Shown here piece by piece: positions 11,321-28,900 of a stretch of DNA of 34,749 nucleotides. Below the pieces are notes generated by a model. That model saw only the letters and a list, made by a program, of their open reading frames with translations. It was not told the origin of the DNA and searched no databases. Location of the stretch: IMG/VR virus record IMGVR_UViG_3300030376_004140, positions 1 through 34,749 of that record. The stretch is one strand, 5' to 3'. Origin of the DNA: a virus (Duplodnaviria; Caudoviricetes). Made by a program: the position numbers and the translations under genes. Within the stretch, counting starts at the first letter, position 1; every line of letters begins with the position of its first letter.

Positions 11321-11389
11321 TAAAGGGCTGTACATATAGTTAGGCATAATAGTCGCTTCACTCCATTAGAGCTTATGTATAGCCCTTTA
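11321..11389 (+). ncRNA. Long-stem structured RNA element
   Basis: 16-bp stem 11321-11336/11374-11389 with one G-U pair. Confidence 0.55.
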
Positions 11390-11406
11390 TAAAATAAGGA
11401 TATAAA

Positions 11407-11715
11407 ATGGACTCGTCAAAAGAAATGGCGAGTGGGCATTGGAAATACAAAGAAAAAACAAGGGCAAAAATAAGAGACTTGATACACTATCTAGGAGAAG
11501 ATTGGATTGATTATGGAACTATTGGAAATGATGTTATTATTGATAAATATAAAAACACAGCTACAAGTGCCTATCAACCTAATAAATGTCCAAAATGCCA
11601 TAGATATTGGCATGTAACATTAGATAATGAGAATCATTTTAAAGTAGAGGAATATTTAAGAAACAGTATATTTGGTAGTTTACCAGCATTAAAGAAAAAA
11701 TGTAAAAACTGCTAA
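11407..11715 (+). CDS. Zinc-finger-like protein
   Basis: CPKCHRYW...LP..KKKCKNC; AAGGA SD. Confidence 0.75.
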   Translation: MDSSKEMASGHWKYKEKTRAKIRDLIHYLGEDWIDYGTIGNDVIIDKYKNTATSAYQPNKCPKCHRYWHVTLDNENHFKVEEYLRNSIFGSLPALKKKCKNC

Positions 11716-12608
11716 ATATTAAAATCCTCAATATCTGACACAAGTAAAGGAGTATAATGTTGTTCTGTTACTTTTACGCTACTGTGTCCTAAAAGTTTAC
11801 TTACTTTAAAAATAGGCATACCACTTTTAATAAGGTTTAGACCGAAAGTTCTACGTAAGTCATGAAACCTTGCATCTTTTATTTCAAGTCTTCTGCTGTT
11901 TTTTTTAAAATTCTTTGTAATAAAACCAGCTTTATAATCCCATAATGTCTCTTGTTCCATTAATAAAGCCCTAGCTTGAGCATTTAGTTTTACAACCCTA
12001 TGTCCTGTCTTTCCTTTGACTTTTAATTGTGCTGGGTCTACCTGATGTGGCTTTAAAGAATGTATTTCTCCCCTTCTAGCTCCAGTATAATATGCAAAGC
12101 GAATAAAAGACTGAAAGTTATCATCTTGAAATTCATTCATAATAAGATTCATTTCTCTATGAGTAAAAACTCTTTGTCTACCTTGTTTTGGAAATATTGA
12201 CATTTTCTTTACATCAGTTATATAGTTTTTTTCTTCTGCCCAATTTAATAACGCATTAATTCTAATTTGATAACCTCTTGCTGTTTCCCTATTTTGTGGT
12301 ATTCTTCTTGTTTTTGAATACTTTCGTAAAACATACTCAGTTACCTTTTTTGTTTGCTCTGTCCATCTAACTAATACATCATTATCGTTTAAATATAACT
12401 CTGCTAATTGATTAAAACTTCTATATCTCTTTTTTTCTTTTGGAGCGTAATGTTCCATTAAAGCTTGATACTCTAATGTACTGTGTAGTTTATTAGCTAT
12501 AGCAATCTTTTTTGTATAAGTTGGTATTATAACTCGATTGCCACGAATCATTTTTCTATAATAGATGTTACCATTCTGGTCTTGGATTAAGTTTGATTTT
12601 AACGCCAT
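11712..12608 (-). CDS. int: Tyrosine integrase
   Basis: TGARRGE, K, HDLRR, LGHSS and HY catalytic set; adjacent att site; GAGGG SD favours ATG 12608 over the ORF-track start 12638. Confidence 0.95.
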   Translation of the reverse strand: MALKSNLIQDQNGNIYYRKMIRGNRVIIPTYTKKIAIANKLHSTLEYQALMEHYAPKEKKRYRSFNQLAELYLNDNDVLVRWTEQTKKVTEYVLRKYSKTRRIPQNRETARGYQIRINALLNWAEEKNYITDVKKMSIFPKQGRQRVFTHREMNLIMNEFQDDNFQSFIRFAYYTGARRGEIHSLKPHQVDPAQLKVKGKTGHRVVKLNAQARALLMEQETLWDYKAGFITKNFKKNSRRLEIKDARFHDLRRTFGLNLIKSGMPIFKVSKLLGHSSVKVTEQHYTPLLVSDIEDFNI

Positions 12609-12704
12609 TTTGCCCTCTTTTTGGTTATATATTGCCAATACATAATAGAAGGAATTAAATATAATGCTAATTTACTCTCGTGAAACTAGCTAAATGGCTG
12701 TTCT

Positions 12705-12754
12705 CGACCTCTACGATGTCACCGTAGCGCTCTAACCAACTGAGCTAATCGCCC
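12705..12754 (-). other. attP core: 5' 50 nt of tRNA-Val(GAC)
   Basis: Reverse complement GGGCGATTAGCTCAGTTGGTTAGAGCGCTACGGTGACATCGTAGAGGTCG gives acceptor 5' strand, D arm, anticodon arm (GAC) and variable loop; no T arm or 3' acceptor strand follows. Confidence 0.88.
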
Positions 12755-12872: not shown

Positions 12873-14063
12873 TTAATCTATTCTAATACTTGGGTCGAAT
12901 TGCTTTATTCTTTTTGCTGTGCCCTTAAACTGTAAATCTCTAACAAGAGCATTACCTAAAATTCTTTGAATTACAACTGGAAGATTATGTTTTATAGAAT
13001 TTCCATCAGATGTTAATTGTTCTTTAAAATTTCTGTTTAATCCAAAATCCCAATTATCATAATAATGAACCTTATGAATTCTTTTTTTAGAATCTTCAAC
13101 AGCTTTAGCATGAAAATAATCATCTAAATCTTTATATTTTTTTCTTTCTACTTTTGATGTGTTTGGTACATAATCTTTCCAAGTTGATTTTTTAGAATAA
13201 TATCCAAAAAGATTATGTTTATCTGTGCTTCCTAATAACCCAGAAGGTTTAATTGCTTGTGCTTGTGGACTAGAACCCCATGTCCGAACTTTTTGCATTG
13301 TGTCAAAAAAGTCTTTTGAGTTTTTATAATGATAATATTCTTTACCGCCCTCTGTATGTTTTCCAAATTTATCCCAAATTCTATCTAATGGAGCTTTATA
13401 ATTTTTTATTCTATCTTTCATTTCTTTAATTTCGGAAAATTCTTCATTGTAGTTTTTAAAATCATTAACAGTTTTTTTACTAGCTGTATATTTATTGTAA
13501 CCTACAGGGTCTAATATTCTATTATATTTTTCATTTGGCTTCCCTAATCCGAATTTTTTTCTCCAAGCAAATAATCTATCTTCAGCCCCAGGGTGAAGTT
13601 TGTATTGAGGCATATCATTGATAACAGCATCTTTAAATACTTTTGGATTTTTTAAAGTTCTTTTTATTGCTCCCCATTTATTATTATAATTAATAGGTTC
13701 TATAGAATTAGCAATAAGTTTTCCTATAGGTGTGCCATAAGTTTTATCTCCAAGTTTAATGCCACTAACTGCCATCTTAGCGCCTTTTAAATATGCGTAT
13801 GGATTAGCAAAATAAGATAAAAGACCTCCTGTATCCATTTCATTTGTTGGTATTTCTTTGTATTTACCACTTGGTAATGCTCCAAATAAAGCATCATCTA
13901 ATCCACCATAAAGACCTTTTAAAACTCCTAATGGGCCTGTGCTAGGGATAGCGTCTTTTACTTTATCTATAAAATTTGGTTTATATTCCTTTATACTGCC
14001 ATAATCAGGTTCACCATCAGGGAGTAATTCATAAGTTGTTTTTGTTTTATCTGGTTTAAACAT
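12873..14063 (-). CDS. Hypothetical protein, probably virion-internal
   Basis: 396 aa, last gene of the virion operon, overlaps the giant gene; Gly-rich N-terminus and basic C-terminal domain. Confidence 0.7.
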   Translation of the reverse strand: MFKPDKTKTTYELLPDGEPDYGSIKEYKPNFIDKVKDAIPSTGPLGVLKGLYGGLDDALFGALPSGKYKEIPTNEMDTGGLLSYFANPYAYLKGAKMAVSGIKLGDKTYGTPIGKLIANSIEPINYNNKWGAIKRTLKNPKVFKDAVINDMPQYKLHPGAEDRLFAWRKKFGLGKPNEKYNRILDPVGYNKYTASKKTVNDFKNYNEEFSEIKEMKDRIKNYKAPLDRIWDKFGKHTEGGKEYYHYKNSKDFFDTMQKVRTWGSSPQAQAIKPSGLLGSTDKHNLFGYYSKKSTWKDYVPNTSKVERKKYKDLDDYFHAKAVEDSKKRIHKVHYYDNWDFGLNRNFKEQLTSDGNSIKHNLPVVIQRILGNALVRDLQFKGTAKRIKQFDPSIRID

Positions 14064-17000
14064 TTTCTTCTTCTTTTTTAGATGCTCTGATTTTTCTTCC
14101 TAATTTATGTACTGGCATTCCAAACATGTATTCAGGAAACATTTCAGGAGTTTCCATTGTTTTAATTAAACTTTTTGCAAGTCTTCCTGCTGGGAATAAT
14201 GTATGTATATAATATCTTGAGTATTTTTCCCAGTCACCATTAATCATGGCAGTAATAACTGGTAAATAAAACCTGTGTATTGGTGCTGTAACTACTTGTA
14301 AAGGAGCCATGGCTGGATGTGGATAGCTACTAAAGAAAGCTCTTTCTCTTTCATCAGGGTCTCCGAATAATAAATCTGCTGATGACTGTAGCCAAGACAT
14401 AGGTGGCGGTAGAGTGCTGTCAAACAATGATGCAACAAAAATGTTTGCTAATGACGCCACCATTAAGTCTTGTGCCATAAATCTTTTTAATCTGTCAACA
14501 GATTGTTTATCTGTCATTCCATATCTTTTAGCTGTTTTATAAATATGTCTTCTAAATTTTACTGAATTCCAAGCGAATGGTTGAAATCGTGTTAACATTT
14601 TTCCTAAAGCAGAACGCCCTATCCCTGGTCTATTTACATTGTGATATATAAACTGTGTTGCTTCAACTCCTTTTAAAGCATGTCTAACTAAGTACGGATT
14701 ATCAAACTTTAAATTAGGTACAAGCTGTGAATAGACTTCTTTTGCATGTAGGTAATGAGCTAAAAACGCATCTGCTCTTAATTTTGCTTCTGATGTTCTC
14801 ATAAAATACCCACCAGATGCTACAATAGAATCCCATACCCTATGTTTTTTTGCTATTTCTTTCCATGTAGTATCATTCATTTCCTTGGTAAATAATTTTT
14901 TACCCATCTCATTTATAAAAGGTCTCATTCTAGTAATAGATAAACTTTTATCCATTGATGCTTCTGTTACATAAAAAGATTCCAATGCACCAACTTCACT
15001 TATCCATCTTCTTATAGTGTTTTTATCAGTGATTTTAGTACCATCTTTTAATTTAGCATCTTTAAATACATGAGTTAAAAGCCACTTTGTATCATTTGCT
15101 TTGTAAAAATTTCTTAACCCAGCATTTGTTATGGTATTTTGAGAACCACCAAATATATTTGCAAGTGCTGTTTTTGGATGAGCTAATAGAGAAAGCAATG
15201 ACATTTTTGCTTCAAAGTTTCCAACATTAGTTACAAATTGATGAATTTCTCTCTCTCTAGCTCTTTGAGATGTAGGTAATTCCCCAATTAATGGCAATTT
15301 AGGGTTTTCAATTGTCCCAAATCCTTTGAGTTTTCCAGTAAGCCTACCTAAACCTTGTGATTTTAAGTCCAGCCAATCGATAATAGATTGGTCTGAGATT
15401 GCAAATCTTAAATTCTTTACTCTTTTTGTTTTCTTAAAAGAATCATCTTTTTTCAGTCTTTCTTTAAAATTAAAAACAGTACCAGCTACTTCTTTATTAT
15501 CTTTATTGTCTTTTATATAAGCTGACATTCTAGCTCTTTGATAATTACTAAGACCAACATAATGCATTGGCATTATAGAGCCTTGTCCCATTTGTTCTTT
15601 TATAAAAAGTCTCATTTCGTTTGCCCAAGGTTCTAAAACTTCTTTAGGCATTGGATTTTCATTTTCATATTTTCTTATAGTTTTTCTAGCCATAAGTGCT
15701 AATGTGTTTTTAAAAAAAGAACTAGTCCATTGTTCTGCATATTTTTTCATAACTTCAGGTGAATAACTAAAATGAGGCATAGGTATTTGACCTCTAGCTC
15801 CTCCTGTTCCTGGTCTAGTTGAAAAATTACTATCTTGCCAATCTTTTTTAGAGTCTCTATATCTAGAATTGAGCCATTCTTGCGCCCATTCTCCTGTACC
15901 ATCTCCCTCTACTCTTCTTCCTGTCAATATCTGAAAATCTTGATTTTGAATAGTTAAGTATTTTTCTAATATTTCAGTTTTGCTCATTTTTTTATTTGGT
16001 ATTAATCCTAAATAAGCTTTTATTTCATAATCTGTAGGTCTATATCTCTTTTTTATGTCTTTAATTCCAGATAATTTGCCTTGACTAGATACTGAATTCA
16101 GATAATTTTCTAATTGTATTTTTAATTGAGCTGATTCTTCTTTTATCCATGGCATTAATTTTTCTTTATTATGTAGCATTTGAGGCCAATAACCATCTTT
16201 TATTTGACCAATTCCAACAAAGGCAGTTTCATTAAATATAAATTCACCTGTAGCCTTGTCTTTTTTATATGTTTTTCTATAATCGTTTCTAAAATTCTGA
16301 GCTTCTTTACTGTTAGGTTTTAGCTTATTGAATTGAATCATTTCTTCTAAAGCTATTTCATATTGAACTCTATTTAAAAGCTCAACACTTAATGGATTAT
16401 TTCTATTGCCAATTAAATGCCCAAAAGATATGTCCCCCTCAGATGCTTTCTTAATAACTTTGTTTTCAAAGTTTTCAATATCAAACCTTCCAAATTTGTC
16501 ATACTTAATTATATCATGTATAAACAAGCCTTTGTCTTTATACTCATGTAAATCATCAATTTTACTCCAATCTATTTTTTCCCATTTTCCATCTTTGTTA
16601 AATAACCCAGAACCAATCCATGATTCATACATATCTTCTTTAAAAAATTTATCTACTTGGTCTTGTATGTCTTTAATTAATTCTTCACCAGTTTTTTGTA
16701 CTGTTTTACCATCTCTAGTAACTCTAAATACTTCACCTGATATTTTATGTAAATCTTTTGCGCTTTTTAAATACTCTGATTGATAAAAGTCCATCTTAGT
16801 TTTAGAAATATCTCTTTTAATATTTTTATCTTTAATTGCTATCTCTAATAATTTTTGAAATTTTTCTATTCCATTAGGAAGTGCTTCTATTTCTCCTTTT
16901 ACACTTACAGATTTAAATAAATCTTCTTGTAATTGGTTTTTAATAGCATCTTCAAATCTTCTTATGCTGTTAGATGAGCGCTGTAAGTAAGACATAGCTG

Positions 17001-20000
17001 ATAGAGGTATTTTTATACTACTTTCCCCCATACTGCCATCTAGGTTTTTTATAGGAACTTTAACTGAATATAAATGAGCTAAGTCATGTGTAGACATTCT
17101 TTGTCCTAATCTGTCTGGAAAAAGATAGTTGTATATATTTTTATAAAAAGCCATTGGCTTTCCATCAGATTTTCTTTTTTGTACTACTGCTCCTTGCTCT
17201 ACAAATTCTTTTAACATTCTATCAAAGTTTCTTAAATCACTCCACGTAGCTCCTCTGATACTTGTTATATTTTTAAATCCCTCTTCCGTTTTCATAAGAA
17301 CAAATAAATCATCTATTCTACCTGATAATTCAAATGGTAAGGTCTTTAATGTATTTTTAATACTTGGCAGTACTTTGTTTTGAATATCTGCTGGTATTTT
17401 ACTTTTATCAACACTTACATCGCCTATATCGCTAAGCCTATCAATTCTTAATTGTTTATTTTCTATAAACTCTGGTATGCTTTCTGGTGCATCTTTTTCA
17501 ACTACATTCTTATCTCTAAAAAAGAACTCTGGTTTAATAGTCTTTAACTCTTCAGGTGTCCTAGAGTTTAAAAGGTCAAATAAATCAGCATATCCTTTTA
17601 AAAAGTCATTTTTACTTTTGTCTGGAATAGAACTTAATTCCCACGCAAACTTAGGAATGCTTGTACTTTCGTAATTTTTATCAATGTTGTCTATATAACT
17701 CTGTATTAAATCTTTTTCTGACTCAGTCTTTGCTTCTAATAAGTCTTTTTTAAGAGTGTGTAGTCTATTTTTTTTGTGATGTGCTTGTGGACTTATACTA
17801 CCAAGTAAGAATGAATTAAAATAATCTACTGCATATGTTGGATTTATGCCATATTCTTCAGCTTTTTTAGTTATATCTACTATTTTATTATCTATTAATT
17901 TATTTGCAGATTCTTGAGTTTCATAAACAGCGACTTCTTTATTTTTATACCCTTTTCTAAATAATGCTTTTATGTGCTGTGCTGATTTTCCAATGTAGTC
18001 TCTAAATACTATCCAGTCATTTTCTACTTTTTCTACTGGCTTTTTGTATCCAGCATAAGTATCTACCGCTTCTTGTACTTTTCTTCTCCATGATAATTTA
18101 ATTGTTTGTTCTGAATCAGTAAGTTTTTCTCCATTAATTAATTTAAAAGCAACTGTATTTATGTCTTGATAAGGAACTTTTGAGCCATCATCAACTCTTC
18201 TTCCTTGTTCAGCCATTGCATTTTTTACTTTTTGACCAATCTCTAAATTCTTAAGCGCACTAAATATATCCCATGTATCATTTATTCTAAAATCTCTTTC
18301 AATACTACTATGAAATTTGCTAATTGGCAGTCTATGAAAGTTTTTTAAATTGGCTCTTTCATTGGTATACATTAAATCAAATGTTTTTTGAACCTCTTTT
18401 GGTAGTTTGTTTTCTATACCTTTCCATAAAAAGTCAATATAAATACTTTTACCTTTTTCAGAAGTAATTTTAGGCAGAGTTGTTTCATTTTTTGTCCCCT
18501 TATACATAACAAATTCAGGATGATTATTTTTCATCTGCTCATAAACTCTTAGGTAGTCTATATTCCAATATTGAGGCTTTATAAGAAGATTTTCTCTAAT
18601 AGAAAACTCTAATAAGTTATTATCTTTCCATATGTTTCTACCTAAAGCTCTAATAGAATTATCTAAACTTCTAAAATTAAAATTCTTTAATGGATTCACG
18701 TCTATATTATTGGCACTCATATGCTTTGCAATAGTAAGAATAGAACTCATATAAGTATCGCCAACTTGTAATTCTTTTAATGATTCTTGAACTTCTGCTG
18801 TAGTCCAATTTCTTCCTTTGTCCCAATTATATCCATATAGCTTTTGATTTAACTCATTAACTGCTTTATACTCTATTGAATTAGTTAAATGCCTATATTT
18901 TGGTTCTGTTTTGAACTTCATTTTTTTGGCGTATTTAGCATGTTCTTTAGTTGGGAAAAAATTAAGATTTTCAAAAGCGCTTTTAAACAATATTTCTTGC
19001 ATCTGTTCTGCTGTTGCCATCCTGAAATAATTAGCACTATCTGCTGTTCTTGAAGATGCTTCAACACCCATCACATAGTATCCTTCTGGAGATTTAAGAA
19101 ATTCTTCGCTAGTAGTACCTTTTAATTTCCCTAGTAACACTGGTCTTCCTAAACTATCAGGTTTTTTTCTATATACTGGTATATCTAACTTGCCATTTTT
19201 ATTAGTAATTATATCAGATAAAACTGTATTTAAGAAAGACTTGGTATTTACGACTCTTCCCATACCTTGTTTTCCAAAATAAGAAGATTGACCTGCTTTT
19301 CTTAATGCACCAGGAGACCATTGAGAGATGGGATTGTTTTTAACATAATCAAACTCACTTAATCCATAAGTTTCTGTCAGTCTTTTTTTACTTAACTCAC
19401 TATTAAATACTTTATCAAGCTTTTCAGCTTTATTTTCAAAGAAAACTCCTTTTTTGTTTTCAAGAAAACTATCGTTTTTTATTAAATCTTTGATGTATTC
19501 TTTTGGTAATCCTTGATAGAAAAAGACTTTATCGCCATCAACATCAGCGCCATCTATGTAAAAATGGTCTCTGCCTTTCATATATACGCCATAATCTGTT
19601 ATGTCTTTATAGTCTGTTTTTACAAATCCATCAAATAATAATGCTCTTGTGCCAGAAACTGCATTAGCTGGAACTCTCATTACTGCCAACATTAATCTAT
19701 TTCTCATTCTTGCTATAGATTCTTCTGTTGCAATTGGTGTGTTTGATTTCAAATCTTTTAATGCATTTTGGTATTCATTCCAAGCATCTTCAAGGGTTGT
19801 AGTTTTATCATTTATCCATTTAATTTTTCTAGTTTTGTGAGATTCTCCTAACATCACATGGCCAACTTTTTGAGTTTCTAGTGATTTACCATTCCAGAAT
19901 TTGTAACTTGCATTATCTTTTATTCCCCCTGTAATAGCTTCCATGACAGGGTCTACTCCTGCTACCCACCCACTTGCACTGTATTCCCATTTAGGCTGAG

Positions 20001-23000
20001 TAAATCTATTTAATCTATATTGATGAACAGCTCTCTGATATAAATTCATATTTAACACTTCAGCAAGGGGATTATAATTTGTAGCTTTATAAATACTAGA
20101 AAAACCATCTACATATTCTTTTAATTCTTGAAATTTTCCCTGCATCTCTGGAAACTCATTTTCAATTTCCATTTCTTTTAATTTTTTAAATATTTCAAAG
20201 TTTAATTCTTTATGCAGAGGATGAGTTGTATCATTAACAATATCAACAAAGTCTTTATCTCTCAATTTGGATATGTCAAAATTCTTTGGCAGTGGTAGTT
20301 TATCATTAGTTTTTAACTGCTCTATATATAGATTATTCTCAGGAGTGCCACGCAAAGGTACTTCTAAGACATCGTTCATAAAGTTTTCAAATCCAGGCTT
20401 GGTCATTGTTATACTATCAAAGAACGAATGCATTTGTTTTTTAATTGTAGTTGCCTGTGCAGAATGGCTGTCTCCATATACTCCGTAGTTTATTCTAAAA
20501 TCTTTAATTGGCATTTTTAATGATGGAGCTGAAGCCTTATTTCCCTTACTATCTATTAGGTCATATATTGTTTTACCCCTTGCTTGACCTTTAAATATTT
20601 CTGCTCCTTTAGGTATATGTTTAGATGCAGAGGTTACTACAATCATTGAATTGGGGTTTTTTAGTACCTTATCGTAAGCTTTTCTTGAAGGGTGGACACC
20701 ACCTTTGATTAAAAATAATTGACCCCCTATTTCGACTGCTACTGCTGGTTTCATATGGGAAGTGCTTTCGTCTAAAAAGTTTGATTTTAAGAATTGTTTA
20801 TACAAGTCAGAATGCATTACAATCCAGCCATCAACTTTACTTTCCCATGCTTGTTCTACTATTTTCCCATTCTTATCTACAGTTTTAAATGTCTCAGGAG
20901 CTTTTCCTTTTACGTTTAAAAACTTTTTAATTTTTTCTTTTGTACCATCTATTTTTTCTTTAACTGTATCTAGTAAGAACCTTTCAGCTTCTACTAAATA
21001 AATGTCAATTTCGTCTGTACCTTTAGTTAATTTTGTAAAATCTTTTGGATTAACTTGAAAAAATGCTTTAGAGGCAAATAACGCTTCTCTTTTTACCCTA
21101 GCTACAGCATCTTTAAAGTTGTAATTCTTTTCATAGAGATAATTTGACCTAAATGAGGCGTCAAATACTTTATCTAAAAACTGTCTATCTGCACTATTCC
21201 ATTGTGAGCGAGGCTTTCCCATTGTTTCATACCAAATATCTCTATCATATCTGTAAAACTTTTTTAATAAATCTAAATTTATTTCTTTGCTTTTAGAATT
21301 TTTTGAAACTTCTGATAATATATCTTTAGTAGACGTCTTTTTTGTATCACGATGGAATTTGTATATTCTTTCAACGCCATTATCTTTTTTAGGTATTTTT
21401 AAATATTCATGCCCAATATCTTTACCTCTGTCTCCTCTTTTATTCCACAAAACAGAGTTAATCTGTAGCCAATCACTTGGAGACACTTCATTAACCCACT
21501 CACCTTTATAAAAATTAAATTTCTTATCATAAGGTTTAACAGTATAGTAATCTCCATTCCTATTTTTATTAACTACTTCTGAAAATTCAAAAACTGTTAC
21601 ATTATCAGACCATAGTTTTTTATCTACATTTATTACTTCATCTGCTGGTTTAGGACTTAATGAAGAAACTATTTTATTTAATATATTTTTATACTTAACC
21701 CTAGTTGAAGCCTGTTCTGATATATTCCAAGAGAGTATTGGTCTGTGTTGTTCCTGTTGTATGCGATTAAATAATTGTCCTAATGCTGTAATATCTTTTT
21801 TAGGGATAATTAAACCAGGGTATTTATTTGTTAATGCCCCTAAATAGTCTTTTATCGACTGTCTTATGTCATTTGACTCTCTAATTTCTTTTTTATTAAA
21901 TAATTCTACAGCATCTTTACCAATTTCTTCTGCTTTAAATGGTAAATCACGTGATGCTTCCTGAATTCTATTGATAAACCTTCCTATCATCCCCTGATTA
22001 CTAACTTCAGGTTGGCCTTCAGATAGTCTTTGTTCTGCTCTTAATATGTCATTTAAAGTTGTCTTTGCTGGTTCATGTGGCTTTGATTCAAAATAATCAA
22101 CTATTGCCTTATCTAATGGGGCAATATCACCGTTTTTTACATCAGCTAATTCTTCTGGAGTAAGAGATTTAGATATTTTTTCAATTTCTGGGGTCTTTTT
22201 TGTTTCATCAATAATGCCTTCATATACCTTATTAACAATAAGGTCTCTTGCTTCCATTTCAGCACTTTTTCTAGAGGACTCTAGCGCTTGTTCTGCATCA
22301 GCTTGTCTTACTTCATACTTATCAAGTTCTTCTACTTTTTTACCTTTTTCATCTGCAATTCTTTGTCTAGCAGATAACTTACTTGATTCAATAGTTTCTT
22401 TTAACGTAGCACCAGCAACTGTAATTGTATTATCATAGAATTCTCCTAAGTGATTAAAGTGAGATTCTTTTACAATATCTTGAGCTTCTTTGCTTAATTT
22501 AAAAAACTCAGGTCTATCCGTCATTTTCATTATATCATCAAAATTGTACTTTAACGTACCATCTGAATTTTTTTCTGAATTAAACTTATTATAATAACTA
22601 TTTGCTTCTTTAATGGCTGTACCTTGAGCTTGAAAGCCAAAAAATCCACCTAGTAAATATTCATATATCTGAGTAGCTGTAGGTGCGCCTTGCATTGTAG
22701 CCATCCCACCTTGAAAAGCACTACCAGCACCCATACTTATTAATCTTTCTTTATTCGCAGTTGCAAATTCTTTACTATATTTCCATAATCCTCTTATTCC
22801 AGCTCCTTGAACTTTTACATTAGGATGCTGAATCATTTTTCCCATAGTCACAAAGTTTCCTAACCCACCAAAAGCACCACCAGCAACTGCGCCAAAAAGC
22901 ACATTATTTAATTCATCATTCTCTCCATTAAATAGACCACTAACTCCACTAGCTACCCCCAAATGCGCTGATTGGAATGCAATATCTAAAGCTTTTCCTT

Positions 23001-23628
23001 TTCCAGTAGATTTTCCTATATGTTTTGCAACTTCCCATCCATGCTTTGTTAGTTTGTCCTTTATCCATTTTTCTCCATAATCAGCAACAGCCAAAGGCAC
23101 TGATTTAATAGGAATTTCAGCCATGCCTTTAATATTTACTTTAGACCCTTGTCTAGCTACTTTCCCAACAGATTGCATTCCTTCACCTACATAGCCAATA
23201 CCTCTTCTTGCAGTATTAATAGCACCACCCACTTTACCAACAGAAGATGCTCTAGTAGCGTATTTACTTGCAGATAGCCCTAATCTAGCTATACCTGAAC
23301 CACCTAATGTTAATACAGAACCAGCTAATGGCAATGCAAATCCTAATAAATGCCCCATACTATGAGCAATAGACTGAGTTTCATCGACAGGGTCTTCTGA
23401 CCATCCACCAAATGCAAGTGGCCCTAATACACCCTCTGTAAATCCTGAAGAAAATTGGGAAATTACACCGCTACTTTTTTGCGCTCTTTTTGCACCTTCA
23501 ATAGAATTATCAAAAGGTATACCATAGATGTCTGCGTACTCTTTTAGTTCTGCAACTTCAGATTCGTCATATCTATTAGGACTTAGGTTGTAGGCAGTTA
23601 TCCTACTATGTATATCGAGGGGACTCAC
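14056..23628 (-). CDS. Giant virion/ejection protein containing a single-chain two-barrel RNA polymerase
   Basis: 3190 aa; Gly/Ala hydrophobic N-terminus; D933-G...K975-G...K1003 and R1318-x-P...D1362-V-D-G-D1366; helical ejection-protein-like C-terminus. Confidence 0.8.
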   Translation of the reverse strand: MSPLDIHSRITAYNLSPNRYDESEVAELKEYADIYGIPFDNSIEGAKRAQKSSGVISQFSSGFTEGVLGPLAFGGWSEDPVDETQSIAHSMGHLLGFALPLAGSVLTLGGSGIARLGLSASKYATRASSVGKVGGAINTARRGIGYVGEGMQSVGKVARQGSKVNIKGMAEIPIKSVPLAVADYGEKWIKDKLTKHGWEVAKHIGKSTGKGKALDIAFQSAHLGVASGVSGLFNGENDELNNVLFGAVAGGAFGGLGNFVTMGKMIQHPNVKVQGAGIRGLWKYSKEFATANKERLISMGAGSAFQGGMATMQGAPTATQIYEYLLGGFFGFQAQGTAIKEANSYYNKFNSEKNSDGTLKYNFDDIMKMTDRPEFFKLSKEAQDIVKESHFNHLGEFYDNTITVAGATLKETIESSKLSARQRIADEKGKKVEELDKYEVRQADAEQALESSRKSAEMEARDLIVNKVYEGIIDETKKTPEIEKISKSLTPEELADVKNGDIAPLDKAIVDYFESKPHEPAKTTLNDILRAEQRLSEGQPEVSNQGMIGRFINRIQEASRDLPFKAEEIGKDAVELFNKKEIRESNDIRQSIKDYLGALTNKYPGLIIPKKDITALGQLFNRIQQEQHRPILSWNISEQASTRVKYKNILNKIVSSLSPKPADEVINVDKKLWSDNVTVFEFSEVVNKNRNGDYYTVKPYDKKFNFYKGEWVNEVSPSDWLQINSVLWNKRGDRGKDIGHEYLKIPKKDNGVERIYKFHRDTKKTSTKDILSEVSKNSKSKEINLDLLKKFYRYDRDIWYETMGKPRSQWNSADRQFLDKVFDASFRSNYLYEKNYNFKDAVARVKREALFASKAFFQVNPKDFTKLTKGTDEIDIYLVEAERFLLDTVKEKIDGTKEKIKKFLNVKGKAPETFKTVDKNGKIVEQAWESKVDGWIVMHSDLYKQFLKSNFLDESTSHMKPAVAVEIGGQLFLIKGGVHPSRKAYDKVLKNPNSMIVVTSASKHIPKGAEIFKGQARGKTIYDLIDSKGNKASAPSLKMPIKDFRINYGVYGDSHSAQATTIKKQMHSFFDSITMTKPGFENFMNDVLEVPLRGTPENNLYIEQLKTNDKLPLPKNFDISKLRDKDFVDIVNDTTHPLHKELNFEIFKKLKEMEIENEFPEMQGKFQELKEYVDGFSSIYKATNYNPLAEVLNMNLYQRAVHQYRLNRFTQPKWEYSASGWVAGVDPVMEAITGGIKDNASYKFWNGKSLETQKVGHVMLGESHKTRKIKWINDKTTTLEDAWNEYQNALKDLKSNTPIATEESIARMRNRLMLAVMRVPANAVSGTRALLFDGFVKTDYKDITDYGVYMKGRDHFYIDGADVDGDKVFFYQGLPKEYIKDLIKNDSFLENKKGVFFENKAEKLDKVFNSELSKKRLTETYGLSEFDYVKNNPISQWSPGALRKAGQSSYFGKQGMGRVVNTKSFLNTVLSDIITNKNGKLDIPVYRKKPDSLGRPVLLGKLKGTTSEEFLKSPEGYYVMGVEASSRTADSANYFRMATAEQMQEILFKSAFENLNFFPTKEHAKYAKKMKFKTEPKYRHLTNSIEYKAVNELNQKLYGYNWDKGRNWTTAEVQESLKELQVGDTYMSSILTIAKHMSANNIDVNPLKNFNFRSLDNSIRALGRNIWKDNNLLEFSIRENLLIKPQYWNIDYLRVYEQMKNNHPEFVMYKGTKNETTLPKITSEKGKSIYIDFLWKGIENKLPKEVQKTFDLMYTNERANLKNFHRLPISKFHSSIERDFRINDTWDIFSALKNLEIGQKVKNAMAEQGRRVDDGSKVPYQDINTVAFKLINGEKLTDSEQTIKLSWRRKVQEAVDTYAGYKKPVEKVENDWIVFRDYIGKSAQHIKALFRKGYKNKEVAVYETQESANKLIDNKIVDITKKAEEYGINPTYAVDYFNSFLLGSISPQAHHKKNRLHTLKKDLLEAKTESEKDLIQSYIDNIDKNYESTSIPKFAWELSSIPDKSKNDFLKGYADLFDLLNSRTPEELKTIKPEFFFRDKNVVEKDAPESIPEFIENKQLRIDRLSDIGDVSVDKSKIPADIQNKVLPSIKNTLKTLPFELSGRIDDLFVLMKTEEGFKNITSIRGATWSDLRNFDRMLKEFVEQGAVVQKRKSDGKPMAFYKNIYNYLFPDRLGQRMSTHDLAHLYSVKVPIKNLDGSMGESSIKIPLSAMSYLQRSSNSIRRFEDAIKNQLQEDLFKSVSVKGEIEALPNGIEKFQKLLEIAIKDKNIKRDISKTKMDFYQSEYLKSAKDLHKISGEVFRVTRDGKTVQKTGEELIKDIQDQVDKFFKEDMYESWIGSGLFNKDGKWEKIDWSKIDDLHEYKDKGLFIHDIIKYDKFGRFDIENFENKVIKKASEGDISFGHLIGNRNNPLSVELLNRVQYEIALEEMIQFNKLKPNSKEAQNFRNDYRKTYKKDKATGEFIFNETAFVGIGQIKDGYWPQMLHNKEKLMPWIKEESAQLKIQLENYLNSVSSQGKLSGIKDIKKRYRPTDYEIKAYLGLIPNKKMSKTEILEKYLTIQNQDFQILTGRRVEGDGTGEWAQEWLNSRYRDSKKDWQDSNFSTRPGTGGARGQIPMPHFSYSPEVMKKYAEQWTSSFFKNTLALMARKTIRKYENENPMPKEVLEPWANEMRLFIKEQMGQGSIMPMHYVGLSNYQRARMSAYIKDNKDNKEVAGTVFNFKERLKKDDSFKKTKRVKNLRFAISDQSIIDWLDLKSQGLGRLTGKLKGFGTIENPKLPLIGELPTSQRAREREIHQFVTNVGNFEAKMSLLSLLAHPKTALANIFGGSQNTITNAGLRNFYKANDTKWLLTHVFKDAKLKDGTKITDKNTIRRWISEVGALESFYVTEASMDKSLSITRMRPFINEMGKKLFTKEMNDTTWKEIAKKHRVWDSIVASGGYFMRTSEAKLRADAFLAHYLHAKEVYSQLVPNLKFDNPYLVRHALKGVEATQFIYHNVNRPGIGRSALGKMLTRFQPFAWNSVKFRRHIYKTAKRYGMTDKQSVDRLKRFMAQDLMVASLANIFVASLFDSTLPPPMSWLQSSADLLFGDPDERERAFFSSYPHPAMAPLQVVTAPIHRFYLPVITAMINGDWEKYSRYYIHTLFPAGRLAKSLIKTMETPEMFPEYMFGMPVHKLGRKIRASKKEEENV

Positions 23629-23639
23629 TAATAATTAAA

Positions 23640-24434
23640 TTAATATTGTGGCTTATTTGGGCTTATTCCTAATCCTGACATTATTTTTTGTAATTCCAAT
23701 AAGTGACTTAATGCTTTTTCAGATTCACCAGTTATAAAATCAAAAGGGCCACCATCAAGAAAATCAGCACCTCCATCATCTCCTGTTAATTTTCTATAAA
23801 CATCTAATATATCTTTTTCAAAAGCTTGACGCTCATAATTGCTTTTAGGAACTGGTTTATTTGTCCCCATACCAGTCATAATATCTTGGTATCCTTTTCT
23901 AATAGTTGGAAATCCAGCATCTAACCCTTCTATATAATCTGATTCATTTAAACCAAGTCCAGGGAACATACTTGGGTCTTCACTAAACATTTGATGCATA
24001 AGACCTCTCAACATAGGAGCCATAAAAGAATTACGAACCTTATCTTCTTCTCTATCTTTTTCTTTATCCTTATAAAACATAGTATCAATCCATTGTTGCC
24101 TAGCTACAGCATCATCTATTTTTCTATTTTTTCTTGCATCTTCCAATAATAATTTTTTCTCTGCAAGTTCGCTTTTCATAAGGTTTTTTGCATTTTCATG
24201 AGACAAACTATCAGCGCTTCTTTGGTTTTTTAATTCCTCTTTTAAGATTTCAATTTCTTTAGCAAATCTTAAACTATCTCTTGTTTCAGCACTTTCATTA
24301 GCGCTTTCTTGAAGTTTTTGAGTTGCTAAGTTATTTGCTCGGTTTATGTCGAATTGAGATTGATTGTTTACTGCGGTATTAAGACCTTGTCCAACTTCTC
24401 TAATTAGACTATTAAATAATAATTCTGGTTCCAT
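23640..24434 (-). CDS. Probable internal virion/ejection protein
   Basis: Charged coiled coil; lies between the tail gene and the giant protein. Confidence 0.6.
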   Translation of the reverse strand: MEPELLFNSLIREVGQGLNTAVNNQSQFDINRANNLATQKLQESANESAETRDSLRFAKEIEILKEELKNQRSADSLSHENAKNLMKSELAEKKLLLEDARKNRKIDDAVARQQWIDTMFYKDKEKDREEDKVRNSFMAPMLRGLMHQMFSEDPSMFPGLGLNESDYIEGLDAGFPTIRKGYQDIMTGMGTNKPVPKSNYERQAFEKDILDVYRKLTGDDGGADFLDGGPFDFITGESEKALSHLLELQKIMSGLGISPNKPQY

Positions 24435-24913
24435 TATACTTGCCTCTTTATTTGTTCTTTTGCAAATATCCTATCATCAGTAGCTTGTCTTCTATCTGCA
24501 TGTCTAATGATAGTTCTATTGTAATCTGCATTTACATTGTTTATTGTGTCTTGAATAGCATCTGTTCTTAGTTTTTCTCTATTTGTATCAGTAGCTAAAT
24601 TTGAAAAATTTGATGAATGAATAATGCCTTTTCCTTTTTTAAATGTATTCCCTGTAGATGTATCAAAATTCTTCCAACTGGCTTTTTCGGCAAGTTTGTC
24701 ATTTGCTTTTAAAGCCTTTATATCTTTATTTAAACCAGTTATCATTCCTTGTCTTGCATCTCTAGTAGTACCACTTTCCCATAATCCAGTCATATCACCA
24801 ATTCCGCCCCAAACACCTTCTCTTCCAATATGAGTATCCCAAAATGTTCCTAAGTCATCAAATAAGTTTCCTGTACCAAGAACATCACTTATGCCTTTAA
24901 TTAAGCCTAGCAT
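24434..24913 (-). CDS. Probable internal virion (pilot-like) protein
   Basis: Gly-rich amphipathic N-terminus, helical C-terminus; TAATG coupling. Confidence 0.6.
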   Translation of the reverse strand: MLGLIKGISDVLGTGNLFDDLGTFWDTHIGREGVWGGIGDMTGLWESGTTRDARQGMITGLNKDIKALKANDKLAEKASWKNFDTSTGNTFKKGKGIIHSSNFSNLATDTNREKLRTDAIQDTINNVNADYNRTIIRHADRRQATDDRIFAKEQIKRQV

Positions 24914-24914
24914 A

Positions 24915-25514
24915 TTAATACCTCCCTGAGTTCATATCTAATCCACCACTAGGATTAAATAGTTTTTGCATTGTTGTATTTTTATTTCCTGCACCTATAC
25001 CAATACCAAGCAATGCCATCAACCCTAACCCATAAGGATTAGACAGCATTGATGAAAAAGCACCACCTGCTCCCATTTCTGAAGGAGCTAGGAGAGTATC
25101 CATACCTTCAATTCCTAAATCAGTTAATTCACTTGGATTTAAAGATGCAATATCAGTTCCAAAGCCAGTTATTTCTTTAGATGCTGAACTAGGAGAAAAT
25201 GCATTGCTAAAATAATTGATTAAACCATTTCCTTCTTTTCCAGTTGTCATTGGGCTATTGGCAATTTTATTTATGACTTCAGGAGAATAATTAAATTTAT
25301 CTTTTAATAGTTTTTGCGCTCCAGCATTGTCTTTCATAAGCTTAGCAAGTTCAATAGCATTGTTATATTTTTTTTGAGTATTTATTATATTTCCACCTAC
25401 TTTTCCAAAATTATATAAATTCATTAAGCCTTTTTGACTTTTATTAAGCCCTTTTTGCCTGTCTTGCCAATCCATACTTTCTTTGGCGTAATTATTTGTT
25501 GATTGATAATCCAT
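24915..25514 (-). CDS. Probable internal virion protein with hydrophobic segment
   Basis: NPYGLGLMALLGIGIG segment; operon position. Confidence 0.6.
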   Translation of the reverse strand: MDYQSTNNYAKESMDWQDRQKGLNKSQKGLMNLYNFGKVGGNIINTQKKYNNAIELAKLMKDNAGAQKLLKDKFNYSPEVINKIANSPMTTGKEGNGLINYFSNAFSPSSASKEITGFGTDIASLNPSELTDLGIEGMDTLLAPSEMGAGGAFSSMLSNPYGLGLMALLGIGIGAGNKNTTMQKLFNPSGGLDMNSGRY

Positions 25515-25515
25515 G

Positions 25516-25950
25516 CTATTTCCTTATAATTGTTCTAAATGTAAATGTTATATCAGATAATTTAAAATTTTTAAAATCTGTTCCATCTGCTCCAGTAATT
25601 CTTAAATAAAGCCTAACAGCAATAGAACGAGCTTTTGCTTTTCCAGGTATAATTAATTCTGCTGTTGATAACTTTCCACCAGTTCTTTTTAATTTTGTAT
25701 GGGTATTTTTTATCGCATTTGGATTATTAGGACTTGGTTCTAAAGTTTTCCATTGATAATTATCATCTGTTTTGTAGTGAATCTCTAAAGGACTCGCTCC
25801 AACCCCATCAATAGAATATGTAATGTGAATTCTACTATATTTTTTTATTAAACTAGCATCTCCACCATCATACATTTTTGTTTCTAACGTACCACTAGTA
25901 ATATCTTTTTTAGTACGTGACGTTGCTTTTAATCTTATTTCTGTTCCCAT
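25516..25950 (-). CDS. Detached C-terminal domain of tail nozzle/stabilisation protein
   Basis: LETKMYDGG...KKYSRIHITY motif typical of the C-terminus of podoviral tail tubular B / P22 gp10-like proteins. Confidence 0.6.
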   Translation of the reverse strand: MGTEIRLKATSRTKKDITSGTLETKMYDGGDASLIKKYSRIHITYSIDGVGASPLEIHYKTDDNYQWKTLEPSPNNPNAIKNTHTKLKRTGGKLSTAELIIPGKAKARSIAVRLYLRITGADGTDFKNFKLSDITFTFRTIIRK

Positions 25951-28900
25951 TAGTCTGTTATGTTTTGATTTTGTCTTGCTTTATTATTTACTGATGAGGT
26001 TGTTTGATAAACCCTATTTGTTTGTGCTACATCAATTCCTGAATTTGAACTATTTTCAAATTCTTCTGCCCACATTAAATGACCTTGACCTGTTTGTGCA
26101 AATCCTGTTTTTTTACTAGCAGTAAATAAACTATCAGAAGAGCTAAATGCTCTATTATTAAATGAAAAAATTAAAGTTTTATTATTACTAACTGTATCTC
26201 TGGCAATCAATACTTGGTTCCAATAAGCATCGTACCCACAATGAAGTCTTTTCCCATAGAAACTTTCCCATTCAGATTTAGAAATAGTACTACCTTCGGG
26301 GTTTTCAGTTAATCTTTCTATAAGTTCACCATTGTATAAATAGATACCACTCCTACTTACCCAAAATAATCCATAAGGAGTTTGGCAAACTTGAGAATCA
26401 GACTCTACTCCAACTTGATGAACTATCTGTTCAATAACCTCCCTAGATTCTCCATTTTCTAATATCTTAATTCCCATGATAGTTAAACCATGTCTTTTAA
26501 ATTGTAATAATTTATTACCAACTACTTGCAAGGATGTGATTTCATCCCCATCATTTATACTTGCTTCAATTAAATTAGAAACACCTACTGTGCTATACAT
26601 TCCTTTAGCAGACTTTAGAATACCATCTGGGAAATAATTTACTGTACCATCTTTACCAATAATAGATACATTTCCATAATAAGCTCTTCTATTAAACATA
26701 CAAGCAGTTTTCCACCCTGTTTTTACAGCATTAAACCCTATATCATCGCCATAGTGCAATTCATATCTTGATGTAAATGATTCTATTGTGTTTTTTACAG
26801 TATAAATCATATAGTTACTTCTGTTTTTTGCAACAGGAGTAATACTTGACATATCACCTGTTGTGTATGCAGACAACGGACTACCGCTTCCAAAAAAGGA
26901 TTTATTAGACAAAGCCATCCAATCCCCGTTTAAAGAACTTCTCCAGCCTTTATTTAAATCTATGTCACATATTGAATATATTTCACCAGGACTTGTAGAA
27001 TACTTAGCCCATATCTCAATGCCTTTTAATCTGGAATTATACATACCAGAACCAGTTCCTCCTAATAACTGCTTTCCAACCATAACCATCACTCCCATTG
27101 CGCAATTATCATTAGCTGGTGAAGAGCTTTGAAAATTTGTACTATTAGCAACACCATCTACTTGAAACCTTTTTGGCTTACTAATGTATCCTCCGTGATA
27201 AACATAATTCCAATAAAATTCAACAGAGTCTGATTTTTGAAATGAACCAGCTATTTTATCTTTATCCTCATCTGTGTTAGTTGCTTCATCTGTAAATTGG
27301 CAATATAGTTTTAGACCAGTTTTTTCTACCAAAAGAAAATTCTGGTCAAATCCTCTAACATTTACAGAATTAGTATCTTCTATTATTCCACTGCTGTTTT
27401 TTCTAAAAAATATCTTAGAATCACCTACATTGTAATTTAAAGTTTCTCCACTTTCTGAAGCAGTTACATTAAAAAAAGAATCTGCTGTTTCAGGGTCAAA
27501 TGCCATATGTGACCATTGTTCTTTATATTTAGGGGTTTTAGGACTGTTTGTACCATAACTGTAATGCTTTGCTACAGCTCCAGTATCAATAAGTTCCTCA
27601 TAAGGAGTTGGGCATAAATCAGTATATTCATAACCATCAGCATTAACATCTGTTTCTAAATATGTTTTATTAAACGTAAACATGCCAAAAAATCTAGGTT
27701 TATGATTGGCTTTCATTGTTGAGTCACAAACAAATAAATTTCCTTCCGCATCAAAAAAAGACAAATCAGGACTACTTGTTGTAACAGTGTCATCTTCTCT
27801 TAAATCAATTGCCCAATTCATCCATTGGTCGTTTTCCATTTGATATATAGTAGCTGTTGCATTAGAATTTGCTATCGCTATAAATCTTCTGTCTCTATCA
27901 GCCTCTGTTAAGCTACTTGAGTTGTCAGTTTCACTAGTTCTAGTAACTGTAATAGTTTTTATTCCATAAGGTATTTCAGTTCTTGAGTCTTGATAAATTT
28001 CAACTCCACCATCAACTCTTTTCCAAAATACTTGATGAGCTTCAGTACCTCCACCTATTTTATCTTCTTCTCCAGCGTACAATCCAGCTATAATTTCTTC
28101 TACTGTATCGCCATAAATAGAAGTATATGATAAATTTATTGTTTCAAAACCAGTTTGTATAACATTTGTATAAACTTGAATAGCAACAGTGTAAGTAAAG
28201 CCACTTTTAATATCAACATTACCCATTGCCCATTTCCATTTTGAAAAAGCACCATAATGAGGATTGTCATTCATACTAAAATTATAAGCACCTGGTCTTT
28301 GGTTAAACGTACCTGCCCAACCATCCATAAAATATTTAGTTCCCCAATCTTGCCATTTCATAGTTAGACTTCCATCTGTAATGTTTCCATTAGCAATCTC
28401 ATGCTCTAATGAAGATTGATAGATATCATTTGTGCGAGTTGCCTTCCAAGAATTTGAGCTATCTGGAACAAGTATATTTATTTGACCATAATAATCAAAT
28501 ACCATTTCCATTTTCCAACTTGGATAATCTGCTATATTAGAAGTAGCTCCTCCTAGTTCACCTTCTGTTGTGTCTCTTAATACTACAAATTTATTAACAC
28601 CATCTACTGCATTAGAATATGCTGTAGAGGTGCTTAATTTGTTTGTGTTATTAGTTGAATCATAACTAACAGCATCTGTTGAGCTAGGGTCGTATGTTTT
28701 CCAATTCCAATCAATAGAACCGTGAATAGTAGAATCATAATCAACACTTGTTTTTTTATTGGCTAAGTCTTCTAATTTTTTTACAGTAAGGCCCTGTATT
28801 AACGCATCATGCCATTTATATCCAGAAGTTTCATCAATAGTTCTGTCTATAATATTAATTATTTCATTTTTATCTTCATTCCACATCTCAAATGACCTAT

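What the first reader, a model, noticed from the sequence alone, without database searches (positions are those of the whole stretch)
19030..20840. Single-chain two-barrel RNA polymerase hidden inside a 3190-aa virion protein
Seen: in order, VDGWIVM (D933), LIKGG (K975), VTSASK (K1003), MRVP (R1318), GADVDGD (D1362/1364/1366, nt 19531-19551), then GKQGMGRVVN and SSRTADSAN. Known: this order matches the two double-psi beta-barrels of QDE-1-type RdRPs, SPbeta YonO and the crAss-like phi14:2 virion RNAP gp66 (DG..KG..K in one barrel, RxP..DxDGD in the other, then bridge-helix and trigger-loop equivalents). Inference: an active DNA-dependent RNAP that is packaged and injected, given its position after tail and pilot genes.
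Basis: partly seen in the sequence, partly recalled or inferred. Interest (0 to 1): 0.92.

Follow-up and report, generated by a model that had tools for sequence, protein, structure and literature searches.

The report
Giant phage protein carries RNA polymerase
A 3,190-residue, cysteine-free protein of an uncultured marine phage contains a region predicted to fold like the single-chain RNA polymerases of crAss-like phages and of eukaryotic RNA silencing, and it is likely packed in the virus particle and injected to start viral gene expression in a host that is probably a Marinisomatota (SAR406) bacterium.

Summary
Observation confirmed; interpretation supported. All seven motifs lie where stated in ORF 14056-23628(-). 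D933, K975, K1003, R1318, P1320 and D1362/1364/1366 are invariant in 56 of 56 aligned close homologs. An AlphaFold model of aa 850-1600 (pLDDT 86) matches two-barrel RNA polymerases: QDE-1 Z 17.7, phi14:2 gp66 Z 12.8. No sequence or profile search detects this. Packaging is inferred, not shown: the gene ends a conserved tail-to-ejection block, has no cysteine (78 of 80 giant family proteins likewise), and its C-terminus resembles LPD38/39 domains. The phage is not crAss-like by head genes: complete relatives are about 50 kb with a P22-type portal and SU10-type capsid. An integrase beside a 53-nt tRNA-Val piece that matches only two Marinisomatota genomes points to that host. Activity, packaging, template and active-site distances are untested. 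The scan found this family before on other DNA (e1-6312193). In passing: conserved, covarying structured-RNA modules, without an Rfam match, lie in the early region. Verdict: new variant of a known kind, interest 0.55.

The parts
14056..23628 (-). Giant protein, 3190 aa, no cysteine; predicted virion (ejected) RNA polymerase
22429..23628 (-). N-terminal region aa 1-400, Gly/Ala-rich (23-24%), two moderately hydrophobic segments (aa 95-113, 243-261); conserved; likely membrane or ejection part
20479..21015 (-). First double-psi beta-barrel (beta-like, aa 872-1050) with D933, K975, K1003; by order equivalent to QDE-1 D709, K743, K767
   Evidence: stand-alone barrel matches at model 23-201, Z 5.6-5.8; QDE-1 residues from PMC9508822 passages; residue equivalence inferred
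19435..19992 (-). Second double-psi beta-barrel (beta-prime-like, aa 1213-1398) with R1318-x-P1320 and D1362-x-D1364-G-D1366
   Evidence: match to beta-prime/Rpb1 barrels Z 8-11 and stand-alone barrels Z about 7
19531..19551 (-). GADVDGD, predicted Mg-binding aspartate triad
19201..19314 (-). 38-residue helix (aa 1439-1476) holding GKQGMGRVVN; predicted bridge helix
   Evidence: helix 590-627 of the model; identity as bridge helix inferred from position
19030..19056 (-). SSRTADSAN, predicted trigger-loop start; D1530 invariant in 45 of 45
   Evidence: QDE-1 trigger-loop D1116 in PMC9508822; equivalence inferred
14059..15711 (-). C-terminal all-helical region aa 2640-3190, among the best-conserved parts; resembles LPD38/LPD39 and PLxRFG-type C-terminal domains of injected polyvalent phage proteins (weak)
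25950..29558 (-). 1202-aa protein, likely tail nozzle or muzzle
   Evidence: tail-protein clusters 0.95; crAss_MUZ set 0.91; upstream of the giant gene in 46 of 53 loci
23640..25950 (-). Four small genes (144, 199, 159, 264 aa), all without cysteine; likely co-ejected channel proteins, no family match
12873..14063 (-). 396-aa cysteine-free protein after the giant gene; likely a further cargo protein
11712..12638 (-). Tyrosine integrase
12702..12754 (-). 53 nt identical to the 5' part of a Marinisomatota tRNA-Val(GAC); attP-like core and host clue
1..11715 (+). Convergent early and replication block (DUF932, Sak, primase-helicase, resolvase, small ORFs, structured non-coding stretches); the likely template of the polymerase

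Best explanation
The middle of this 3190-aa phage protein is predicted to be a single-chain two-barrel RNA polymerase that is likely made late, packed in the phage head, ejected into the host with the DNA and used to transcribe the early genes. Shown by tools: motif conservation, the predicted two-barrel fold, the gene's place at the end of a conserved tail-to-ejection block, the absence of cysteine. Inferred, by analogy with phi14:2 gp66 and N4/DEV virion polymerases: the small cysteine-free neighbours build a channel through the envelope; the giant protein passes partly unfolded; its Gly/Ala-rich N-terminus stays at the inner membrane; the polymerase refolds in the cytoplasm, binds Mg through D1362/D1364/D1366 and transcribes the convergent + strand block, while the host enzyme would transcribe the late block. 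My odds by step: fold 0.97, active enzyme 0.9, packaged and ejected 0.8, early genes as template 0.65.
For: Fold: model pLDDT 85.9, pTM 0.86 from 45 sequences. Foldseek on PDB: rank 1 gp66 6vr4 E 9.8e-8, then QDE-1 and RDR2. VIA on 48,161 chains without Foldseek: ranks 1-18 are all two-barrel RNA polymerase chains; QDE-1 Z 17.7 (419 aligned, rmsd 5.4), gp66 Z 12.8 (533, 4.4), P74-26 gp62 Z 11.3, P23-45 gp96 Z 10.3; best QDE-1 chain by rmsd 345 aligned at 3.6. Conservation; spacing D933-K975-K1003 of 42 and 28 against QDE-1 D709-K743-K767 of 34 and 24, P-to-D 42 against 43. Packaging: nozzle-family gene upstream in 46 of 53 loci, the other 7 end shortly upstream; order parallels phi14:2 g075-g071-g068-g067-g066-g065, whose products were found in virions; 0 Cys in 3190 aa against 1.4% in early proteins, 78 of 80 family proteins over 2500 aa have none, a trait reported for the N4-like ejection operon (PMC11445570 passages); C-terminus nearest named Atlas clusters LPD38 0.94 and LPD39 0.93; relatives carry inserted SLOG, AlkB-like and HhH domains as polyvalent injected proteins do.
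Against: Foldseek's own superposition on gp66 is poor (TM by query 0.33, rmsd 26) and identities are about 10%. No sequence or profile link to gp66 or its neighbours, to PDB sequences, Pfam, PHROGs or NCBIfam. Lack of cysteine is not specific: the window's integrase and its tail-fibre fragment also have none, and gp65/66/67 have 1-2. The C-terminal model is weak (pLDDT 61) and its matches to polyvalent proteins have E 0.01-0.4; the Atlas marks the LPD clusters as often chance. No repeated promoter motif was found in the early region. The hydrophobic N-terminal segments are only moderate (1.44-1.48).
Confidence: 0.7

Rival explanations
1. Packaged and active, but its main job is mechanical or priming: it pulls the genome into the cell by transcription, or makes short RNAs on single-stranded DNA, while the host enzyme expresses most early genes.
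For: Giant ejection proteins act in genome entry in T7 and N4-like phages (PMC13434306 passages); gp66 transcribes single-stranded DNA far better than double-stranded DNA in vitro (bioRxiv 2020.03.07.982082); sigma-70-like sites flank the repressor-like gene at 4035-4123.
Against: Sigma-70-like sites in 300-5000 are barely above shuffles (36 against 28.3 +/- 5.4); gp66 does transcribe early genes in vivo. The two roles are not exclusive.
Confidence: 0.13
2. A non-virion polymerase like SPbeta YonO that transcribes late genes from inside the cell.
For: YonO is a single-chain two-barrel enzyme of a temperate phage (PMC5467207 passages); this phage has an integrase and an attP-like site.
Against: The gene lies at the far end of the late block, so it would have to be made before its own operon; YonO is about 100 kDa, this protein about three and a half times longer, cysteine-free and flanked by ejection-like regions.
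Confidence: 0.08
3. An RNA-templated or dual-template polymerase like QDE-1/RDR2 that copies host or phage RNA.
For: QDE-1 gives the highest Z (17.7 against 12.8 for gp66).
Against: gp66 is also closest to QDE-1 in structure yet DNA-dependent; gp66 aligns over more residues (533 against 419); Z favours the shorter target.
Confidence: 0.05
4. A catalytically dead polymerase fold kept as a structural part of the ejection machine.
For: No activity shown; most of the protein is non-polymerase.
Against: The Asp triad, R-x-P and the trigger-loop Asp are invariant in 45 of 45 sequences down to 18% identity.
Confidence: 0.04

Closest known systems
[quoted passage not shown]
   Same: Single chain with both barrels, connector, bridge helix and trigger loop (533 residues aligned, Z 12.8); R-x-P then DxDxD; gene at the end of the late block after muzzle and cargo genes, facing a convergent early block.
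   Different: About 10% identity and no profile-detectable homology; fourth motif position G, not I/V (55 of 56 close homologs; distant members have S, A, I or G); 3190 aa with its own N-terminal hydrophobic and C-terminal helical regions instead of separate gp65/gp67; genome about 50 kb against 100 kb; P22-type portal and SU10-type capsid; integrase; probable Marinisomatota host.
Neurospora QDE-1 and plant RDR2 (PF05183 RdRP; PDB 7Y7P, 2J7N, 7W84)
   Same: Best structural Z (17.7); same order and similar spacing of D, K, K, R-x-P, DxDGD and trigger-loop Asp.
   Different: Eukaryotic RNA-silencing enzymes; only 1 of 45 core sequences touches PF05183, at E 0.059.
Thermus phage P23-45 gp96 (tape-measure-fused virion RNAP) and gp64/gp62 (PMC10770324)
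   Same: Two-barrel polymerase inside a giant virion protein; Z 10-11.6.
   Different: Long-tailed phage, polymerase at the N-terminus of a tape measure and without clamp; here a short-tail ejection block and a long helical connector.
N4 gp50 / DEV gp71 virion RNA polymerases (Schitoviridae; PMC11445570, PMC13434306)
   Same: Layout: about 3,200-3,500 aa, membrane-type N-terminus, central polymerase, helical C-terminus, no cysteine, small cysteine-free neighbours.
   Different: Their catalytic domain is T7-like, unrelated to the two-barrel fold; they have a zinc-binding HExxH region, which the window's protein lacks.
SPbeta YonO (PMC5467207)
   Same: Single-chain two-barrel polymerase in a temperate phage.

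Membership tests
Two-barrel RNA polymerase superfamily, single-chain type | Two double-psi beta-barrels in one chain | tested here: met
   (predicted model)
Two-barrel RNA polymerase superfamily, single-chain type | [RK]xP-x(20-100)-DxDxD motif (filter named in PMC10770324 supplement), conserved in homologs | tested here: met
Two-barrel RNA polymerase superfamily, single-chain type | Conserved Asp and two Lys in the other barrel | tested here: met
   D933, K975, K1003 in 56 of 56 and at least 90% of 45; equivalence to QDE-1 residues by order, not by measured geometry
Two-barrel RNA polymerase superfamily, single-chain type | Asp triad faces the Lys residues across the barrel interface | not testable with these tools
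   model coordinates not available; one-body superposition on QDE-1 spans both barrels
Two-barrel RNA polymerase superfamily, single-chain type | Template-dependent, Mg-dependent RNA synthesis | not testable with these tools
   needs bench assay
Virion (ejected) RNA polymerases | Gene in the tail/ejection block | tested here: met
Virion (ejected) RNA polymerases | Suppression of cysteine in the ejection operon | tested here: met
   trait from PMC11445570; not specific
Virion (ejected) RNA polymerases | Present in virions and delivered to the cell | not testable with these tools
   no cultured phage, no proteomics
gp66 family of Crassvirales RNAPs | Ile or Val at the fourth position of DxDxD (bioRxiv 2020.03.07.982082) | tested here: not met
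   G1365 in the window and 55 of 56; some distant members have Ile
gp66 family of Crassvirales RNAPs | Sequence-profile homology to gp66 | tested here: not met
   hmmsearch and hhalign of A2 against gp66 give nothing; one gp66 sequence only
gp66 family of Crassvirales RNAPs | Cleft-blocking domain | not tested
   aa 1-850 were not folded
Order Crassvirales | Capsid, terminase and primase group with crassviruses (PMC10136315 passages) | tested here: inconclusive
   No tree was built. Against membership: relatives' portal is PF16510 P22-type, capsid PF17236 SU10-type; 21 capsid matches in GenBank phages, none named crAss-like; no profile match to phi14:2 capsid or partial portal. 27 of 925 terminase matches are Bacteroides phages that were not inspected. 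These genes lie outside the window and were read from relatives.
Order Crassvirales | Bacteroidota host, genome near 100 kb or more | tested here: not met
   near-complete relatives 44-51 kb; host clue Marinisomatota
N4-like (Schitoviridae) virion RNAP | T7-like catalytic domain | tested here: not met
   the core folds as two barrels
YonO-like non-virion RNAP | Small stand-alone polymerase transcribing late genes | tested here: inconclusive
   size and gene context disagree; no YonO comparison made

The most novel reading that the evidence does not exclude
A widespread, undescribed group of roughly 50-kb, partly temperate podophages of Marinisomatota injects a two-barrel RNA polymerase built into an N4-style ejection protein, and the first things it transcribes include an array of modular structured RNAs (window 555-742 and 1793-2331) that are swapped letter for letter between phages whose polymerases are only about 19% identical and that act on a conserved host factor.
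Probability: 0.2. Interest if true: 0.85.

Novelty: new variant of a known kind. Interest (0 to 1): 0.55.

Why it matters
Giant two-barrel virion polymerases are described as a hallmark of crAss-like phages (PMC10136315 passage), with P23-45 gp96 as a second case. This family has the same catalytic core in a phage with other head genes, half the genome, an integrase in part of the family and a probable host in an abundant uncultured marine phylum. It joins the catalytic fold of gp66 to the layout of N4 gp50, which bears on an open question stated in PMC13434306 (common origin or convergence of ejected polymerases) and on the proposed phage origin of eukaryotic RNA-silencing polymerases. The window's canonical DVDGD, against the distorted DFDID of gp66, gives a direct comparison for self-inhibition. 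The enzyme can be expressed and assayed without culturing the phage. It is an extension of a known strategy, not a new one.

Tried and rejected
Sequence searches that found nothing: PDB by phmmer and by profile (chance hits only), Pfam, PHROGs, NCBIfam for the core, GenBank phages by tblastn for core and C-terminus. No relative in the GTDB genome collection (600 pattern stretches, none confirmed) and none in 301 genomes of the probable host phylum: no integrated copy was found in those searched. C-terminal model against 48,161 solved chains: best Z 6.5 over 44 residues, uninformative. Desulfofustis phage LS06-2018-MD01, the best capsid match, has no giant gene in the 38.7 kb shown (largest 1577 aa; not folded). 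Promoter hunt: no repeated motif family in 1-13000 and none shared across six genomes' intergenic regions beyond the RNA-like blocks and a short stretch near the start of the early block. Antisense idea for the conserved non-coding blocks: block A 3' strand 0 of 301 host-phylum genomes at 3 mismatches, block B 0 of 2; shorter pairings were not tested. Expression: no RNA holder listed; one RNA run held four short contigs, uninformative; runs X2 and X3 give identical contigs and are not independent. tRNA-Gly of relatives matches the host phylum at 93-95% in 9 of 151 genomes, without control, so not used. Literature: nine searches listed no paper on this family; the library lacks most subscription papers. 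Supplements of PMC10770324 hold no hit for four terms, but its alignments of 23 RNAP families (.7z) could not be read and might include this family; bioRxiv supplements were not seen. No complex prediction was run.
Full report
Observation. The window is a 34,749-base virus record, 32% G+C, with a + strand block (1-11,715) facing a - strand block. The ORF 14056-23628(-) has 3190 codons. All seven motifs are at the stated places. By themselves they are weak: DxDGD arises in 3.2% and RxP...DxDxD in 21% of 2000 shuffles. A contig from another run covers the motif region with one differing letter.

Conservation. A search with aa 850-1600 gave 59 proteins including the query among 4602 candidates; a full scan of 1.84 billion representatives gave 54. 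In A1 (window plus 55 of the 58 homologs; P0036, P0050, P0052 left out; 34-69% identity) D933, K975, K1003, R1318, P1320, D1362, D1364, D1366, R1527 and D1530 are invariant in 56 of 56, G1365 and K1453 in 55 of 56. IMG/VR gave 53 loci from 384 pattern hits; 27 have DVDGD and 26 have DKD[S/A/I/G]D. In A2 (window plus 44 of the 53 loci, down to 18% identity) R-x-P, the triad and D1530 are invariant and D933, K975, K1003 are kept in at least 90%. Of 28 further proteins over 1500 aa, 27 keep RxP...DxDxD; the miss is a fragment.

Fold. AlphaFold2 on A2 gave pLDDT 85.9 and pTM 0.86. Foldseek ranked gp66 first (E 9.8e-8, though TM 0.33 and rmsd 26), then QDE-1 and RDR2. VIA realignment gave QDE-1 Z 17.7 and gp66 Z 12.0 over 510 residues. 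The independent wide search put two-barrel polymerases at ranks 1-18 and matched each barrel separately to stand-alone double-psi barrels, at model 364-549 and, more weakly, 23-201. In BFVD the best matches are unnamed viral proteins (E 5e-29), then crAss-like proteins. The order and spacing of the conserved residues fit QDE-1 D709, K743, K767, R962-x-P964, D1007/1009/1011 and D1116 (PMC9508822, passages); the one-to-one equivalence is my inference, and distances could not be measured. No sequence or profile method sees the relationship.

Is it a virion protein? Not shown, but four indirect lines agree. (1) A nozzle-family gene lies upstream in 46 of 53 loci, with two to five small genes between; the window's 1202-aa copy resembles tail proteins and, at 0.91, the crAss muzzle. 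The order parallels phi14:2, where these products were found in virions and crAss001 (PMC10172136, passages). (2) The protein has no cysteine, nor have 78 of 80 family proteins over 2500 aa (the window's included), against 1.4% in early proteins; among proteins over 140 aa, the genes between nozzle and integrase are cysteine-free in the window and five relatives except one residue in one small protein. This trait marks the N4-like ejection operon (PMC11445570, passages). It is not specific: the integrase and a tail-fibre fragment also have none. I took this lead from earlier scan notes and tested it. (3) The N-terminal 400 aa are Gly/Ala-rich with two moderate hydrophobic segments. (4) The C-terminal 550 aa weakly resemble LPD38/LPD39 and PLxRFG-type domains (model pLDDT 61); LPD38 is confined to phage-type injected polyvalent proteins (PMC5512222, passages). 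Five of 14 long relatives scanned carry a SLOG domain and two an HhH domain; one locus has an AlkB-like domain inside the core.

What phage is it? The window lacks head genes. Five near-complete relatives (44-51 kb) were read; those scanned have a P22-type portal, SU10-type capsid and adaptor and a phrog_38 terminase. Capsid matches in GenBank are 21 records at 25-28% identity, none named crAss-like; profiles of capsid, portal and nozzle do not match phi14:2. No tree was built, so placement outside Crassvirales is likely, not proven. No DNA polymerase was seen among the genes scanned; not all genes of the relatives were scanned. An integrase follows the giant gene in the window and in 15 of 53 loci. 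Beside it lie 53 nt identical to the 5' part of a tRNA-Val(GAC); a 48-nt pattern from it matched 2 stretches in the whole GTDB collection, one titled Candidatus Neomarinimicrobiota and one in a genome drawn with the same phylum. Integrase homologs of 33-46% identity occur in 5 of 301 genomes of that phylum (no control phylum). No integrated copy of the polymerase was found in those 301, so lysogeny is suggested only.

Mechanism. Most likely the protein is made late, packed in the head, ejected partly unfolded after the small neighbours have formed a channel, and then transcribes the convergent early block, as gp66 does (bioRxiv 10.1101/2020.03.07.982082, parts 1-2 of 6 read). Confidence 0.7. 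Rivals: mainly a genome-entry or priming motor (0.13), a YonO-like late enzyme (0.08; PMC5467207, passages), an RNA-templated enzyme (0.05), a dead scaffold (0.04). No phage promoter motif was found; none was found for gp66 either.

Known and new. It works like gp66 but fails the family tests that could be run (fourth motif residue, profile homology, genome size, host). It has the layout of N4 gp50 with an unrelated catalytic fold (PMC13434306, passages). P23-45 gp96 is the other described case (bioRxiv 10.1101/2022.12.01.518664, parts 1-2 of 6; PMC10770324 supplement list, two searches and part 1 of file 3). Nine literature searches listed no description of this family; PMC9948707 mentions putative Marinimicrobia viruses in one passage only. 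The unreadable alignment supplement of PMC10770324 may bear on novelty. Earlier notes of this scan reached the same reading on related DNA; they are not counted as support. The labels SAR406 and Marinisomatota for Neomarinimicrobiota are recalled.

Side finding. The early non-coding stretches hold short blocks shared nearly letter for letter with a phage whose polymerase core is 19% identical. Block A (core 1935-2026) is a fixed 16-nt and a fixed 24-nt strand around a variable 17-72-nt arm; the 24-mer occurs in 29 viral stretches. In 28 distinct copies the flanking stems covary: inner pairs 83 of 112 against 48.6 +/- 5.2 in shuffles, outer pairs 186 of 196 (best of three registers) against 155 +/- 4; 0 of 2000 shuffles reach either, though shuffles ignore kinship. 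Block B (676-699) occurs in 18 stretches and is sometimes nested in A. The regions fold better than shuffles (z -3.7 and -5.7) and match no Rfam family. Eleven of 41 carrier records, and 5 of 7 that are at least 90% complete, encode this polymerase family, so the link is partial; relative G001 (66% identical core) showed no such block. Expression is not shown. phi14:2 has abundant long non-coding early RNAs of unknown role.

Verdict. Real feature, correctly read. New variant of a known kind; interest 0.55. Boldest reading not excluded: probability 0.2, interest 0.85.

Noticed in passing
window 1927-2034 (+), core 1935-2026: Structured RNA-like module A: two fixed strands around a variable hairpin arm, closed by a covarying stem; 24-mer in 29 viral stretches, 28 distinct copies; no Rfam match; not antisense to 301 host-phylum genomes.
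   Followed up: partly
window 655-722 (+), core 676-699: Module B: fixed 24-nt hairpin inside a long stem (z -5.7), in 18 viral stretches, sometimes nested in module A.
   Followed up: partly
window 2145-2195 and 1797-1912, 2206-2309 (+): Further hairpin modules; 2145-2195 is 50 of 51 nt identical in distant relative G004; the others are stem-bounded with shorter shared blocks.
   Followed up: partly
G002 11236-11386 and G003 13303-13453: 151 nt fully identical in the early non-coding region of two relatives from different subclades: recent exchange of such a module.
   Followed up: no
window 12702-12754 (-); L011 near 12090; L016, L017, L019, L027: tRNA-Val(GAC) 5' piece beside the integrase; L011 has a one-letter variant; four other loci carry a whole tRNA-Gly(GCC) there.
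   Followed up: partly
window 3308-4135: Repressor-like HTH gene (233 aa) on the - strand inside the early block, with a 49-nt imperfect palindrome and divergent sigma-70-like sites upstream: a possible lysogeny switch.
   Followed up: no
window 335-359 and G001 5714-5738: 25-nt identical stretch just after a hairpin near the start of the early block, with looser copies in G002 and G005; candidate early promoter or terminator.
   Followed up: no
L053:8492-11614; P0005, P0021, P0073, P0096, P0100, P0091, P0103: Variable domains inserted in the giant protein of relatives: AlkB-like 2OG-Fe(II) oxygenase, cpYpsA/YAcAr SLOG, HhH, weak DUF4326.
   Followed up: partly
L032-L053, gene just upstream of the giant gene: In many distant-clade loci the 150-270-aa upstream protein shares its N-terminus with the giant protein's N-terminus, suggesting a common sorting or packaging signal.
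   Followed up: no
window 29551-30312 (-): 253-aa metallophosphoesterase of fixed length between endolysin and nozzle genes in nearly all relatives that reach that far; phi14:2 has one at a similar place.
   Followed up: no
G001 4793-4902, G003 11998-12129, G004 14023-14092, G005 44726-44854: AT-rich palindromic repeats upstream of the small-terminase-like gene at the late/early boundary; possible packaging or origin site.
   Followed up: no
window 7858-9714 (+): Primase-helicase fusion with Sak and resolvase; no DNA polymerase seen among the genes scanned.
   Followed up: no
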